This document shows positions 384 to 40,805 of a stretch of DNA of 64,000 nucleotides, piece by piece; position 1 is the stretch's first letter, and each line of letters opens with the position of its first letter. The translations under genes were made by a program, and so were the position numbers. This stretch comes from Dehalococcoidia bacterium (GTDB lineage: Bacteria > Chloroflexota > Dehalococcoidia > Lucifugimonadales > UBA3495): assembly GCA_965261945.1 (NCBI GenBank), contig CBDHEF010000002.1, positions 1,743,327 through 1,807,326 on the forward strand. Reading direction: 5' to 3'. The notes beneath the pieces were generated by a model that was not told where the DNA came from, did not search any database, and saw only the letters and a list, made by a program, of their open reading frames with translations.

Positions 384-1157
384 CTAGTCCGGGTTCTTGT
401 TCAGGTCGAAAATTTGCCGCAGGCCGACGAGGGTCAGGTTGGGGTTGATGTGGTCGAAGATTCCGGTCTCGCGGGAGATGATGTCGGCCAGTCCCCCCGT
501 GGCGACCACGGTGGCCGAGCCGCCAAGCTCGCCCCTGATTCGTCCCACCAGCCCCTTTACCAACTCGGCGTAGCCCAGCACCAGACCGGCCTGTAGAGCC
601 GCCGTCGTGTTCTGCCCGATAGCCGAGGGAGGCGGCGTCAGCTCGATCCGCCGCAACTGCGAGGTGTTGAGGAACAGGGCCTCGGCGGCCACGCTGATGC
701 CCGGAGCGATGGCGCCGCCAAGGTACACCCCCTCCGCCGATATGGCGTCGAACACCGTGGCGGTGCCGAAGTCCACGATTATTGTCGGAAAGCCGTACAG
801 CTCCTTGGCCGCCACGGCGTCGGCGATGCGGTCGGCTCCCACGTCGCGGGGGTTGTCGTAAGCAATCTGCAACCCGGTGCGCACGGCCCCGGTAACCGTC
901 AACGGCGATACCTCGAAATACCTGGAGGCCACTTCCTCGAATACCCCGGTCAGAGGCGGGACGACGCTGCACATGGAGACCTCGGTGATGTCTTCTCGCC
1001 GGATCCCGCGCAATTGAAGCAGGTTGGTCAGGAGCAGCCCATATTCATCAGGGGAGCGGCGTGAGTCCGTGGCGGCCCGCATGGTGCCAACCAGCCCGGA
1101 ACCGTCAAATACGCCGATGGTCACCATGGTGTTACCAATATCAAGGGCCAGGAGCAT
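384..1157 (-). CDS. coaX: type III pantothenate kinase
   Basis: Track ORF 384..1424 trimmed to ATG 1157: MLLALDIGNTMVTIGVF...VDFGTATVFD...VVATGGLA, the ASKHA/CoaX motifs. The upstream 89 codons only translate the repeat element. Confidence 0.85.
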   Translation of the reverse strand: MLLALDIGNTMVTIGVFDGSGLVGTMRAATDSRRSPDEYGLLLTNLLQLRGIRREDITEVSMCSVVPPLTGVFEEVASRYFEVSPLTVTGAVRTGLQIAYDNPRDVGADRIADAVAAKELYGFPTIIVDFGTATVFDAISAEGVYLGGAIAPGISVAAEALFLNTSQLRRIELTPPPSAIGQNTTAALQAGLVLGYAELVKGLVGRIRGELGGSATVVATGGLADIISRETGIFDHINPNLTLVGLRQIFDLNKNPD

Positions 1158-1302
1158 AGCATCATCCGTACATGGAATCTGGAGCGGCAAAGGAAGGGAA
1201 TCCGGCGCACGGCATTTCCAAACCTGCCGACAGGCGGGATTATATGCCACGGCGGGAAAGGGGGGCAACGCGGCGGCGGGTGTGCGGCATTGTCTTTGAT
1301 AG

Positions 1303-1470
1303 TTCCCCCTCCCTCCGGAGGGTAGGATGGGGGCGTCCCCGTTTGTGAGGGAGCATTGCTGTACGCTTACCTGCGGGACGAGCTGAGCAAGGGCGTCCCC
1401 GTTTGCGAGGGAGCATTGTGCCATCCATGGATTTCACCCTCACCCCAGCCTCCTCCCTGAAGGTAGAGAG
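1303..1470. repeat. composite MITE-like element: hairpin module H, two CRISPR-like R units with one 32-nt spacer, 18-nt C module, inverted hairpin H'
   Basis: H is TTCCCCCTCCCTCCGGAGGGTAGGATGG (1303-1330). R units are at 1331-1358 and 1391-1418. C is TGCCATCCATGGATTTCA (1419-1436). H' is CCCTCACCCCAGCCTCCTCCCTGAAGGTAGAGAG (1437-1470). The same modular order recurs at 38014, 40691 and 48470. Confidence 0.7.
1331..1418 (-). CRISPR. mini CRISPR-like array, 2 repeats and 1 spacer (type I-E-like repeat family)
   Basis: GGGCGTCCCCGTTTGTGAGGGAGCATTG (1331-1358) and GGGCGTCCCCGTTTGCGAGGGAGCATTG (1391-1418) are separated by a unique 32-nt spacer, CTGTACGCTTACCTGCGGGACGAGCTGAGCAA (1359-1390). The conserved ends match the 38068 array. 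Confidence 0.4.
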
Positions 1471-1602
1471 AACTGACGATAGACCCCAGCGAGATGCGGA
1501 TGGCTTCTTGCAAACCCTTTGCGCTGTGCTATAATCACCACGTACCCAGCCTGCCCGCGTCGGGAAGGCGCGATTCCTATTTCATTGAGAGAGCCGACTG
1601 CA

Positions 1603-1872
1603 ATGACCTACATCATCGCTGAGCCCTGCGTTGGCCTGAAAGATTCCGCCTGCGTCGATGTCTGCCCGGTGGACTGCATCTACACCCGCGACGAAGACGA
1701 TCAGTTCTACATCAGCCCAGACGAGTGCATTGACTGCGCCGCCTGCGAGCCGGTGTGCCCGGTCACCGCCATCTTCGCCGAGGATGCGGTCCCCGCCGAG
1801 TGGCAGGACTACATCGCCAAGAATTACGACTACTTCAAGAACACCGACCCCGCCGAGATGAAGCGCAAGTAG
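1603..1872 (+). CDS. ferredoxin, 2x[4Fe-4S]/7Fe type
   Basis: MTYIIAEPCVGLKDSACVDVCPVDCIY...CIDCAACEPVCPVTAIF shows the classic CxxCxxCxxxCP cluster motifs. Track ORF 1519.. trimmed to ATG 1603. Confidence 0.85.
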   Translation: MTYIIAEPCVGLKDSACVDVCPVDCIYTRDEDDQFYISPDECIDCAACEPVCPVTAIFAEDAVPAEWQDYIAKNYDYFKNTDPAEMKRK

Positions 1873-38013: not shown

Positions 38014-38243
38014 CTCCCTCTCCCTTGAAGGAGAGGGCTGGGGTGAGGGACAAATCCGGGGATGCCACAATGTTCCCTCACCAGCGGGGACGCCCTACGG
38101 TTATGACGTGGACGTTGCGCGGTCGTACAATGTTCCCTGCACCAGCGGGGACGCCCATTGTCAGGCAACGTTAGGCTTCCTGCCTTGACAATGTTCCCTG
38201 CACCAGCGGGGACGCCCCCACCTTGACCCTCCCCCGGAGGGAG
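38014..38243. repeat. composite MITE-like element (inverse orientation): H, C, three R units with two 32-nt spacers, H'
   Basis: H is CTCCCTCTCCCTTGAAGGAGAGGGCTGGGGTGAGGG (38014-38049). C is ACAAATCCGGGGATGCCA (38050-38067). The R array is at 38068-38217. H' is CCACCTTGACCCTCCCCCGGAGGGAG. Confidence 0.7.
38068..38217 (+). CRISPR. mini CRISPR-like array, 3 repeats and 2 spacers, type I-E-like repeat
   Basis: Repeats of CAATGTTCCCT(G)CACCAGCGGGGACGCCC are at 38068-38095, 38128-38156 and 38189-38217. The spacers are exactly 32 nt each and are unrelated to each other. The repeat core GTTCCCTGCACCAGCGGGGA closely matches the E. coli I-E repeat GAGTTCCCCGCGCCAGCGGGGATAAACCG. Confidence 0.55.
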
Positions 38244-40617: not shown

Positions 40618-40805
40618 CCCCCTCTCCCTCCGGGGGGGAGGGTTGGGGCAGGGTTGGGGCGCACTTCGATACGCGAAATAACCTGCGGTCGCCCCCCTCT
40701 ACCTCCGGGGGAAGGGTTGGGGTGGGGGCGTCCCCTTTTCGCCAGCGACATTGCCATAGCCCACGAATCCCGCTCTTGCCCCAGCCCAATCCCTCCAGGG
40801 AGAGG
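40618..40805. repeat. two adjacent copies of the dispersed element (H plus degenerate core, then H-R-C-H')
   Basis: H is at 40618-40661. The second H (CCCCCCTCTACCTCCGGGGGAAGGGTTGGGGTGGG) is at 40691-40725. R (GGGCGTCCCCTTTTCGCCAGCGACATTG) is at 40726-40753. C is at 40754-40771. A decayed H' is at 40772-40805. Confidence 0.6.

What the first reader, a model, noticed from the sequence alone, without database searches (positions are those of the whole stretch)
1303..1470. Second mini-array of the same repeat family, opposite orientation, upstream of coaX
Two 28-nt units of GGGCGTCCCCGTTTG(T/C)GAGGGAGCATTG are separated by a unique 32-nt spacer (1359-1390). The same flanking modules are present: hairpin H directly abutting the GGGCG end, and the 18-nt C segment plus inverted hairpin on the CATTG side.

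The conserved ends (GGGCGTCCCC ... CATTG) match the 38-kb array, but the loop region differs (GTTTGTGAG versus GCTGGTGCAG). So the copies are related but diverged.

An independent locus with the identical 32-nt spacer length strengthens the CRISPR-like interpretation.
Basis: seen in the sequence. Interest (0 to 1): 0.65.

Follow-up and report, generated by a model that had tools for sequence, protein, structure and literature searches.

The report
CRISPR spacer-insertion scar in a MITE
The two repeats with a unique 32-base insert upstream of coaX are real, but they are most likely a by-product of the bacterium's own type I-E CRISPR spacer-inserting enzyme hitting the CRISPR-repeat-like core of a small dispersed mobile element, not a working CRISPR array.

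Summary
Two 28-nt units lie at 1331-1358 and 1391-1418 and differ at one base. A unique 32-nt insert (1359-1390) separates them, and the flanking modules are as described.

The unit (R) is the core of a ~150-nt MITE-like element with the order TIR/hairpin H, R, C, TIR/hairpin H'. The genome holds roughly 40-55 copies, and four congeneric species hold single-R copies only.

In this genome R is reiterated at five loci (six events). The duplication boundaries are the same each time, and each insert is unique and 31-33 nt long.

The genome, though not this window, carries a complete type I-E cas operon. Beside it lies a 104-repeat array with 28-nt repeats and 33-nt spacers. R resembles that repeat significantly.

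An internal control supports the reading. One IS transposase gene has a 28-bp duplication plus a 33-bp insert, and six paralogous IS copies keep the empty site.

The best explanation is off-target ("neo-CRISPR") integration by Cas1-Cas2, with the MITE core acting as a hot spot.

This locus lies between two divergent promoters. Its hairpin is weak and no protospacer was found, so function as an array is unlikely.

It is a natural instance of a phenomenon known from the laboratory, and of moderate interest.

The parts
1291..1330 (+). Left terminal inverted repeat / hairpin module H of the MITE-like element. Sequence TTGTCTTTGATAGTTCCCCCTCCCTCCGGAGGGTAGGATGG; family consensus GGGTCTTTTAGTTGTTCCCTCTCCCTCCGGGGGAGGGTTAGGGTGG.
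   Evidence: Alignment of 14 full-length single copies and the flanks of 66 nhmmer hits.
1331..1358 (-). Repeat unit R1 (28 nt). On the + strand it reads GGGCGTCCCCGTTTGTGAGGGAGCATTG. Its type I-E-like orientation is the minus strand, CAATGCTCCCTCACAAACGGGGACGCCC.
   Evidence: Orientation follows from similarity to the resident I-E repeat. Fold is -7.7 kcal/mol.
1359..1390 (.). Unique 32-nt insert ('spacer'), CTGTACGCTTACCTGCGGGACGAGCTGAGCAA.
   Evidence: Unique in the genome. No match in phage records, IMG/VR (26-mer) or plasmids. In 100 relatives there were only 18-22-nt chance hits to unrelated genes.
1391..1418 (-). Repeat unit R2 (28 nt), 27/28 identical to R1 (C at 1406 versus T at 1346).
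   Evidence: Fold is -8.9 kcal/mol.
1419..1436 (+). C segment of the element, TGCCATCCATGGATTTCA (family consensus TGTCATCCCCGGATTTCA). In single copies it directly follows R.
1437..1487 (+). Right terminal inverted repeat / hairpin module H', CCCTCACCCCAGCCTCCTCCCTGAAGGTAGAGAGAACTGACGATAGACCCC. The hairpin is degenerate in this copy.
   Evidence: The module alone is widespread in the genus.
1239..1268 (-). Sigma-70-like promoter of coaX (TTGCCC-18-TATAAT), firing away from the element.
   Evidence: consensus scan only.
384..1157 (-). coaX, type III pantothenate kinase.
   Evidence: Pfam PF03309, E = 3e-67.
1508..1535 (+). Sigma-70-like promoter of the ferredoxin gene (TTGCAA-16-TGnTATAAT), firing away from the element.
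   Evidence: consensus scan only.
1603..1872 (+). 4Fe-4S ferredoxin gene.
   Evidence: Pfam Fer4 families.
38066..38217 (+). Sister mini-array in another copy of the same element, in opposite orientation. It has three R units (one of 28 nt and two of 29 nt) and two unique 32-nt inserts.

Best explanation
The locus is a scar of one off-target spacer-integration event by the genome's own type I-E Cas1-Cas2 integrase.

Shown:
- A ~150-nt MITE-like element (TIR/hairpin H, 28-nt core R, C segment, TIR/hairpin H') sits between the divergent coaX and ferredoxin promoters.
- Its core R is duplicated exactly at |GGGCG...CATTG|, with a unique 32-nt insert between the copies.
- The same footprint occurs in four other copies of R.
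- The footprint also occurs, with canonical 28+33 geometry and six paralogous empty sites, in an IS transposase gene.
- A complete I-E cas operon with a 104-repeat array (28-nt repeats, 33-nt spacers) is present 1.7 Mb away on the same contig.
- R is significantly similar to that repeat.

Inferred:
- Cas1-Cas2 mistook R for a CRISPR repeat.
- It made staggered cuts at the two ends of R and ligated a spacer-sized fragment.
- Gap repair then duplicated R.
- The MITE core is therefore a hot spot that seeds 'neo-CRISPR' mini-arrays.

Likely consequence at this locus: none. I found no promoter reading into it, its hairpin is weak, and its would-be 5' handle (ACGCCC) differs from the resident one (AUAGACC). 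I judge it a neutral by-product and not a working array.
For: 1. Anatomy. The duplication is 28 nt with a unique 32-nt insert. H abuts R1 and C+H' abut R2, so relative to single-R copies the locus contains exactly one extra 'R + insert'.

2. Recurrence with identical boundaries. R is reiterated at C2:899737, 1744657 (this locus), 1781394 (3 units), 2584758 and 2616818.
- The periods are 59-61 nt.
- Every insert is unique in the genome.

3. Local origin. The R units within one mini-array are more alike than R units of different element copies.
- In the 899-kb, 2584-kb, 2616-kb and 38-kb arrays the units share private variants.
- At the present locus the support is weaker. R1 and R2 share one private base, and R1 is equally close (27/28) to the copy at C2:2849088.

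4. Matching enzyme.
- The complete I-E operon lies at C2:17192-26572: Cas3, a Cse1-sized ORF with no Pfam hit, Cse2, Cas7e, Cas5e, Cas6e, Cas1 and Cas2.
- A 104-repeat array lies next to it. Of the 115 spacers in it and the C1 array with the same repeat, 113 are 33 nt.
- The two other Cas1 genes sit beside arrays with 36-37-nt repeats.

5. Empty-site control in the same genome.
- At C2:1396137-1396225, inside an IS transposase ORF, a 28-nt segment is duplicated around a unique 33-nt insert.
- Six paralogous IS copies carry the 28-mer once with no insert.
- That target matches the resident repeat at 11 of its first 15 positions, in register with the duplication boundary (my reading of the sequences).

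6. Period spectrum. Isolated X-Y-X repeats whose period is not a multiple of 3 occur almost only at 59/61 nt. This is the period of the I-E arrays.

7. Similarity of R to the resident I-E repeat in one orientation.
- For the R consensus, 6 of 2000 shuffles scored as well.
- For the 29-nt variant, 1 of 2000 did.
- For the 1.3-kb variants, 22-25 of 2000 did.

8. Ancestral state. Single-R copies of the same element occur in four other species of the genus. Mini-arrays occur only in this genome.
Against: - Insert lengths in the R mini-arrays are 32, 32, 32, 33, 33 and 31 nt. The canonical arrays have 33 nt in 98% of spacers. The match to resident geometry is therefore close but not exact, unless the stagger at this foreign target varies between 26 and 28 nt.
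- The similarity of R to the resident repeat is out of register with the duplication boundaries by 1-3 nt (my reading).
- No protospacer was found for any insert, so a foreign origin is unproven.
- No conspecific genome or metagenome contig with an empty or differently filled allele of this very locus was found. The best CoaX hit was 77% identical.
- G013 has both I-E genes and nine R copies but no mini-array.
- The 2616-kb insert contains a 13-nt copy of its own insert/repeat junction. Plain integration does not explain this.
- An earlier check elsewhere in this scan (e1-3342317) found similar scars to be no rarer in relatives lacking the integrase. A Cas-independent route cannot be dismissed on principle.
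Confidence: 0.75

Rival explanations
1. It is a small but functional orphan CRISPR array. It would be transcribed on the minus strand towards coaX, processed by Cas6e at the R hairpins, and its single crRNA would be loaded into the resident I-E Cascade for defence or gene regulation.
For: - The geometry is repeat-spacer-repeat, and the resident I-E system is complete.
- R shares GTTCCC...GCGGGGA with the resident repeat.
- The 29-nt variant in the sister array has a 7-bp stem and tetraloop like the canonical repeat.
Against: - The array lies between two promoters that fire away from it, and no promoter-like site reads into it.
- The 1.3-kb variant's hairpin is weak, at -7.7/-8.9 versus -15.4 kcal/mol, with z = -1.6.
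- The would-be 5' handle ACGCCC differs from AUAGACC at most positions (reading).
- There is no target for the spacer in the genome or in the collections searched.
- The stem shows no compensatory change across 34 distinct R copies: 79.9% of cells are paired, against 80.0% in shuffles.
Confidence: 0.1
2. The duplication is Cas-independent. It would arise from replication slippage, unequal recombination between neighbouring element copies, or a by-product of the element's own transposition, and it would only happen to resemble CRISPR geometry.
For: - The element is palindromic and repetitive, which favours rearrangements.
- Other local rearrangements exist in element copies: a 12-nt duplication in the C segment at C2:954055, a duplicated H module with period 61 but a 34+27 split at C2:2284679, and one element nested in the R of another at C2:2156077.
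- Insert lengths deviate from the canonical 33 nt.
- An earlier scan note (e1-3342317) cautions about similar scars elsewhere.
Against: - Slippage or tandem duplication would repeat the flank, but the insert is unrelated to either flank and to any element module.
- Six independent events share both boundaries and a 31-33-nt insert length.
- The same footprint occurs in an unrelated IS gene with exact 28+33 geometry and six empty paralogous sites.
- Isolated repeats of this kind cluster at the I-E period only.
Confidence: 0.1
3. The R-bearing elements are CRISPR-repeat mimics with a role of their own, and the mini-arrays are incidental. They would act as chromosomal solitary repeat units that titrate Cas6e/Cascade or Cas1-Cas2, like RNA anti-CRISPRs.
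For: - R is similar to the resident repeat.
- Solitary repeat units that mimic host repeats are known in viruses as RNA anti-CRISPRs (PMC10651486; review PMC8616872).
Against: - The R hairpin decays without compensation among copies.
- Copies are intergenic chromosomal MITEs with no evident promoter.
- Single-R elements also occur in G021, which has no I-E Cas7 gene.
Confidence: 0.05

Closest known systems
Neo-CRISPR loci from non-canonical (off-target) Cas1-Cas2 spacer integration in E. coli type I-E (Nivala, Shipman & Church 2018, Nat Microbiol 3:310). The paper itself is not held; it is cited as described in bioRxiv 10.1101/148544, PMC7054753 and PMC6698737.
   Same: - A spacer-sized fragment is inserted outside a CRISPR array.
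- A repeat-length stretch of the target is duplicated, giving repeat-spacer-repeat.
- The subtype is I-E, with a ~61-bp increment.
- Repeated hits can grow the site: the sister array has three units.
   Different: - This case is natural. There was no overexpression and no oligonucleotide feeding.
- The preferred target is the core of a dispersed MITE-like element, which accounts for 5 of 6 clear scar loci.
- Insert lengths are 31-33 nt, not strictly 33.
- Dependence on Cas1-Cas2 is inferred, not demonstrated.
Canonical type I-E CRISPR array (resident example at C2:10781-17138)
   Same: - The repeat is 28 nt.
- The spacer is unique and 32-33 nt.
- The repeat contains GTTCCC...GCGGGGA.
   Different: - There is only one spacer.
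- There is no leader or promoter.
- The cas genes are 1.7 Mb away.
- The hairpin is weak.
- The 5'-handle sequence differs.
- The repeat is embedded in a mobile-element scaffold.
Virus-borne mini-CRISPR arrays and solitary repeat units / RNA anti-CRISPRs (Racrs): PMC10651486; review PMC8616872
   Same: - One spacer lies between two repeats, or single repeat-like units occur that resemble the host's repeat.
- They are carried by a mobile element.
   Different: - The carrier here is a non-coding chromosomal MITE, not a virus.
- The repeats are only about 60% like the host repeat.
- No target was found for the spacer.
- There is no sign of expression.
MITE / REP-type dispersed intergenic palindromic elements
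   Same: - The element is ~150 nt and non-coding.
- It has ~45-nt terminal inverted repeats that are themselves hairpins.
- There are tens of intergenic copies.
- Its distribution among species of the genus is patchy.
   Different: - The core resembles a type I-E CRISPR repeat.
- In five copies the core has been reiterated with unique inserts.

Membership tests
CRISPR array, type I-E | Direct repeats of 28-29 nt separated by unique spacers of 32-33 nt | tested here: met
   There are two 28-nt units (27/28 identical) and one unique 32-nt spacer. This is the minimum possible array.
CRISPR array, type I-E | Repeat forms the stable Cas6e stem-loop (about 6-7 bp with a tetraloop) and belongs to the I-E repeat sequence class | tested here: inconclusive
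   - Folds are -7.7/-8.9 kcal/mol (z = -1.6), against -15.4 (z = -3.5) for the resident repeat.
- Similarity to the resident repeat was reached by 22-25 of 2000 shuffles for this variant and 6 of 2000 for the family consensus.
- Rfam gave no match, but it gave none for the resident arrays either.
CRISPR array, type I-E | AT-rich leader with a promoter upstream of the first repeat; the array is transcribed | tested here: not met
   - No promoter-like site reads into the array.
- It lies between the -35 boxes of two divergent promoters (a consensus scan only).
- The flanks are the element's C/H' and H modules, unlike the resident 53-nt leader.
CRISPR array, type I-E | Spacers derive from foreign DNA (protospacer matches) | tested here: inconclusive
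   No match was found in phage records, plasmids, IMG/VR (26-mers) or 100 related genomes. The insert is also absent from the rest of the organism's own genome.
Neo-CRISPR / off-target Cas1-Cas2 integration scar | Repeat-length target duplication flanking a spacer-length unique insert at a non-array site | tested here: met
   The duplication is 28 nt and the insert 32 nt. Boundaries are identical in five R loci.
Neo-CRISPR / off-target Cas1-Cas2 integration scar | An unfilled (empty) version of the target exists | tested here: met
   - Tens of single-R paralogous copies exist in this genome, and single-R copies exist in four other species.
- Six exact empty sites exist for the IS-gene scar.
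- No orthologous empty allele of this particular locus was found.
Neo-CRISPR / off-target Cas1-Cas2 integration scar | A resident adaptation module whose repeat/spacer geometry matches the scar | tested here: met
   I-E Cas1 and Cas2 lie beside a 28+33 array. The fit is exact for the IS scar and within 1-2 nt for the R scars.
Neo-CRISPR / off-target Cas1-Cas2 integration scar | Integration depends on Cas1-Cas2 | not testable with these tools
   This needs an in vitro or heterologous integration assay.
MITE-like dispersed element | Short, non-coding, terminal inverted repeats, many dispersed copies | tested here: met
   - The consensus is ~150 nt, with ends GGGTCTTTTAGTT... and ...AATTAAAAGACCC.
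- nhmmer gave 66 R hits, of which 52 scored at least 11.5 bits.
- Copies occur in four other species.
MITE-like dispersed element | Target-site duplications and a cognate transposase | not tested
   Direct repeats of about 9-13 nt flank two copies by eye. This was not analysed systematically, and no partner transposase was sought.
Solitary repeat unit / RNA anti-CRISPR | Expressed repeat mimic whose structure is maintained | tested here: not met
   There is no compensatory change in the stem across 34 distinct copies. There is no promoter at this locus. Expression could not be tested.

The most novel reading that the evidence does not exclude
A MITE family carrying a CRISPR-repeat mimic acts as a dispersible seed for new CRISPR arrays. 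Transposition would scatter integrase-competent pseudo-repeats round the chromosome. The resident I-E Cas1-Cas2 would load them with spacers. At least some products would be transcribed, cut by Cas6e and used by Cascade. The best candidate is the 38-kb array, whose derived 29-nt repeat has acquired a canonical-type 7-bp stem and tetraloop. This would be a natural route to the birth and spread of orphan arrays.
Probability: 0.12. Interest if true: 0.8.

Novelty: new member of a known kind. Interest (0 to 1): 0.5.

Why it matters
Off-target spacer integration that founds new repeat-spacer loci has been shown mainly in E. coli overproducing Cas1-Cas2. Only circumstantial natural cases are reported (10.1101/148544, citing Nivala et al. 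2018).

This genome offers a compact natural data set:
- six events in one element family;
- one event in an IS gene, with six empty paralogous sites;
- the presumed enzyme and its cognate array in the same chromosome.

It shows which sequences a wild I-E integrase mistakes for a repeat, and how far its ruler tolerates a foreign target (periods of 59-61 nt). It also suggests that mobile elements can multiply potential array seeds.

For annotation there is a practical caution. Two- or three-repeat 'CRISPR arrays' of this kind should not be counted as functional arrays.

Tried and rejected
- **Orthologous empty site.** In relatives, coaX and the ferredoxin gene are not adjacent. The single metagenome scan with CoaX found nothing closer than 77% identity. 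No allele comparison was possible for this locus.
- **Protospacers.** Nothing was found in phage records, plasmids or IMG/VR 26-mers for four inserts. The 18-22-nt hits in relatives fall in unrelated genes (an ABC permease and an IS630-like transposase). I judge them codon-bias chance.
- **Rfam.** There was no CRISPR-DR or other family match. The resident bona fide arrays also gave none, so the test is uninformative.
- **PAM-derived first base.** Resident spacers show only a weak bias at the junction base (C 42%, G 34%, A 21%, T 3%). The seven inserts cannot be tested against it.
- **Leader mimicry.** Neither flank of R resembles the resident 53-nt leader (by eye).
- **R as the cognate repeat of some other CRISPR system.** No R array was found in 40 genus genomes or 400 class genomes.
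- **A mobilised 'long form' of the element.** This is rejected because every insert is unique.
- **Whole-element fold.** It is not more stable than shuffles (z = -1.28).
- **Nivala et al. 2018.** The paper could not be read (PMC5832444 is not held).

Full report
**1. The observation**

- R1 is 1331-1358, GGGCGTCCCCGTTTGTGAGGGAGCATTG.
- R2 is 1391-1418 and is identical except for C instead of T at 1406.
- Between them lies a 32-nt segment, 1359-1390.

A hairpin-bearing module H abuts the GGGCG end. An 18-nt segment C and an inverted hairpin module H' follow the CATTG end. The repeat finder links these units to copies at 40726, 48502 and, inverted, 38066-38217.

The locus is intergenic. It lies between coaX (minus strand, 384-1157, Pfam PF03309) and a 4Fe-4S ferredoxin gene (plus strand, 1603-1872).

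**2. What the unit is**

With the whole genome laid out (the window is C2:1743327-1807326), a profile of the 28-mer finds 66 hits, 52 of them at 11.5 bits or more.

Nearly all hits sit in the same scaffold. The consensus reads:
- GGGTCTTTTAGTTGTTCCCTCTCCCTCCGGGGGAGGGTTAGGGTGG (H)
- GGGCGTCCCCGYTGGTGAGGGAACATTG (R)
- TGTCATCCCCGGATTTCA (C)
- CCCTCACCCCAGCCCTCTCCCTCAAGGGAGAGGGAGAATTAAAAGACCC (H')

This is a ~150-nt non-coding element whose two ends are inverted repeats of each other. It is a MITE/REP-like element. In this copy it spans about 1291-1487.

Single-R copies with the same architecture occur in four other species of the genus (G013, G021, G015, G005). None occurs in 400 further genomes of the class. 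The single-R element is therefore the ancestral form.

**3. The reiterations**

In this genome R is reiterated at five loci:

| Locus | Units | Period (nt) |
|---|---|---|
| C2:899737 | 2 | 61 |
| C2:1744657 (this finding) | 2 | 60 |
| C2:1781394 (window 38066-38217) | 3 | 60 and 61 |
| C2:2584758 | 2 | 61 |
| C2:2616818 | 2 | 59 |

In all of them the duplicated segment has the same two boundaries, immediately before GGGCG and after CATTG/CACTG/AATTG, within 0-3 ambiguous bases. The inserts are 31-33 nt. The 899-kb, 2584-kb, 2616-kb and 38-kb arrays have units that share private variants, so the duplications are local. At the present locus this support is weaker: R1 and R2 share one private base, and R1 is equally close (27/28) to the copy at C2:2849088.

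Every insert is unique in the genome. The inserts are unrelated to either flank, so simple tandem duplication is excluded. No such R-insert-R structure exists in the other 39 genomes of the genus.

**4. The enzyme that fits**

The genome carries a complete type I-E operon at C2:17192-26572. It comprises Cas3, a Cse1-sized ORF with no Pfam hit, Cse2, Cas7e, Cas5e, Cas6e, Cas1 and Cas2.

A 53-nt leader follows, and then an array of 104 repeats. In the transcribed sense the repeat is GGTTCCCCCGCACACGCGGGGATAGACC (28 nt). Spacers are 33 nt in 113 of 115 cases, counting a second array of the same repeat on C1. The two other Cas1 genes lie beside arrays with 36-37-nt repeats and periods of 72-75.

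R read as CAATG...GCCC is significantly similar to the resident repeat in that orientation only. The alignment is GTTCCC-TCAC-CA-GCGGGGA against GTTCCCCCGCACACGCGGGGA. Shuffles reached the score in the following numbers:
- 6 of 2000 for the R consensus;
- 1 of 2000 for the 29-nt variant of the 38-kb array;
- 22-25 of 2000 for the two 1.3-kb units.

R is even closer to the E. coli K-12 I-E repeat.

**5. An internal control**

A scan for isolated short-range repeats turned up C2:1396137-1396225. Here GATACCCCCGCGCGCCGGTATAGCCGTG (28 nt) occurs twice around a unique 33-nt insert, inside an IS transposase reading frame. The peptide HGYTGARGY is encoded twice and the frame is broken.

Six paralogous copies of this IS (about 85% identical) carry the 28-mer once, with continuous flanks. 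This is a direct filled-site versus empty-site comparison. It shows a 28-bp target duplication plus a 33-bp insertion, which is exactly the increment of the resident I-E arrays. The target matches the resident repeat at 11 of its first 15 positions, in register with the boundary.

Among isolated X-Y-X repeats genome-wide, periods that are not multiples of three are almost confined to 59 and 61 nt. Five of the six clear scar loci lie in R, although R sequences make up about 0.04% of the genome.

**6. Mechanism**

I conclude that the resident I-E Cas1-Cas2 has integrated spacer-sized fragments at non-array sites, and that the MITE core is its preferred wrong address.

For the present locus one event suffices:
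- staggered attack at the two ends of R;
- ligation of a ~32-33-nt fragment;
- gap filling that duplicates R.

The footprint, its recurrence, the matching enzyme and the empty sites are shown. Catalysis by Cas1-Cas2 is inferred.

**7. Is this mini-array functional?**

The evidence points to no.
- The element sits between the -35 boxes of two promoter-like sites that fire outwards: coaX at 1268-1239 on the minus strand, and ferredoxin at 1508-1535 on the plus strand. Nothing promoter-like reads into it.
It folds at -7.7 and -8.9 kcal/mol (z = -1.6), against -15.4 (z = -3.5) for the resident repeat. Interestingly, the derived 29-nt unit of the 38-kb array reaches -12.0 with a 7-bp stem and tetraloop.
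- The sequence that would become the crRNA 5' handle (ACGCCC) differs from the resident AUAGACC.
- Across 34 distinct R copies the stem shows no compensatory change: 79.9% of cells are paired, against 80.0% in shuffles. The hairpin is therefore not under selection in the family.
- No target of the spacer was found in the genome, phage records, plasmids, IMG/VR or 100 relatives.
- The one difference between R1 and R2 shows that the event is not brand new.

**8. Caveats**

- R-array inserts are 32, 32, 32, 33, 33 and 31 nt, against a canonical 33. One junction base could be identical by chance, or the stagger could vary at a foreign target. The deviation is nevertheless real.
- The similarity of R to the canonical repeat is 1-3 nt out of register with the boundaries.
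- The 2616-kb insert contains a 13-nt copy of its own junction.
- G013 has I-E genes and nine R copies but no mini-array.
- No conspecific allele was available.
- Earlier notes of this scan reached the same idea for the 38-kb array without access to cas genes (e1-4912164). One later check in another genome warns that similar scars can be independent of the integrase (e1-3342317). A genus-wide census of scars against cas content is the control I could not run.

**9. Comparison with known systems and verdict**

The closest known phenomenon is neo-CRISPR formation by non-canonical spacer integration in E. coli I-E (Nivala et al. 2018, as cited in 10.1101/148544, PMC7054753 and PMC6698737). This locus meets the testable defining features of that class.

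It fails the leader/transcription criterion of a working I-E array, and it is inconclusive on the hairpin. It resembles viral mini-arrays and solitary repeat units (PMC10651486, PMC8616872) only in form.

I file it as a natural new member of a known kind, with the MITE hot spot as its particular point of interest. Confidence in the scar reading is about 0.75. Interest is 0.5.

Noticed in passing
Genome C2:1396137-1396225 (outside the window): A 28-bp duplication plus a unique 33-bp insert lies inside an IS transposase ORF and breaks the frame. Six paralogous IS copies (C2:2070318, 2091714, 2619245, 2687381, 2981847; C1:241329) keep the empty site. This is a clean natural off-target I-E integration.
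   Followed up: yes
Genome C2:17192-26572 and C2:10781-17138 (outside the window): A complete type I-E cas operon (cas3 to cas2) lies here with a 53-nt leader and a 104-repeat array. A second array of the same repeat on C1:667218-668079 lacks a leader and ends in a truncated repeat.
   Followed up: yes
Genome C2:2608927-2609869 (outside the window): An orphan 16-repeat array has a different I-E-like repeat (GATTCCCCCACGCGCGCCGGGGCCTAGC) and 33-nt spacers. Only one Cas7e gene exists in the genome. A partial canonical-repeat fragment lies just upstream.
   Followed up: partly
Genome C2:2284679-2284768 (outside the window): The left hairpin module H of one element copy is duplicated with a 61-nt period. 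The split is about 34 nt of unit plus 27 nt of insert, not 28+33. Its origin is unclear.
   Followed up: partly
Genome C2:2616818-2616904 (outside the window): The 31-nt insert of this two-unit R mini-array contains a 13-nt copy (GGTAGGCCAATGT) of its own insert/repeat junction, 18 nt upstream. Plain spacer integration does not explain this.
   Followed up: no
window 38066-38217: In the three-unit sister array, the unit next to the C segment has the ancestral 28-nt sequence. The two units on the H side share a derived 1-nt insertion that creates a canonical-type CCCUGC-ACCA-GCGGGG hairpin (-12.0 kcal/mol).
   Followed up: partly
Genome C2:2156077-2156156 and C2:954055 (outside the window): One element copy appears to be inserted into the R core of another: a partial R is followed directly by a new left end, with a 52-nt offset. 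Another copy has a 12-nt tandem duplication in its C segment.
   Followed up: no
Genome C2:1680615 and C2:2706946 element copies (outside the window): Direct repeats of about 9-13 nt (GTGTCGGTA..., GGGGCTCCCGGYA...) flank these MITE-like copies. They may be unusually long target-site duplications.
   Followed up: no
Relatives G044 and G054: The reversed control pattern CCTGCGGG-N50-54-CCTGCGGG gave 134-160 hits. These are presumably large I-E arrays whose repeat contains that word. This has no bearing on R.
   Followed up: no
window 1429-1471 and many loci in the genus: The H' hairpin module alone (CACCCTCACCCCAGCC plus hairpin) is present in many copies in most genomes of the genus. The R-bearing composite is confined to five of them. 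The hairpin module therefore seems to be an older REP-like family.
   Followed up: partly
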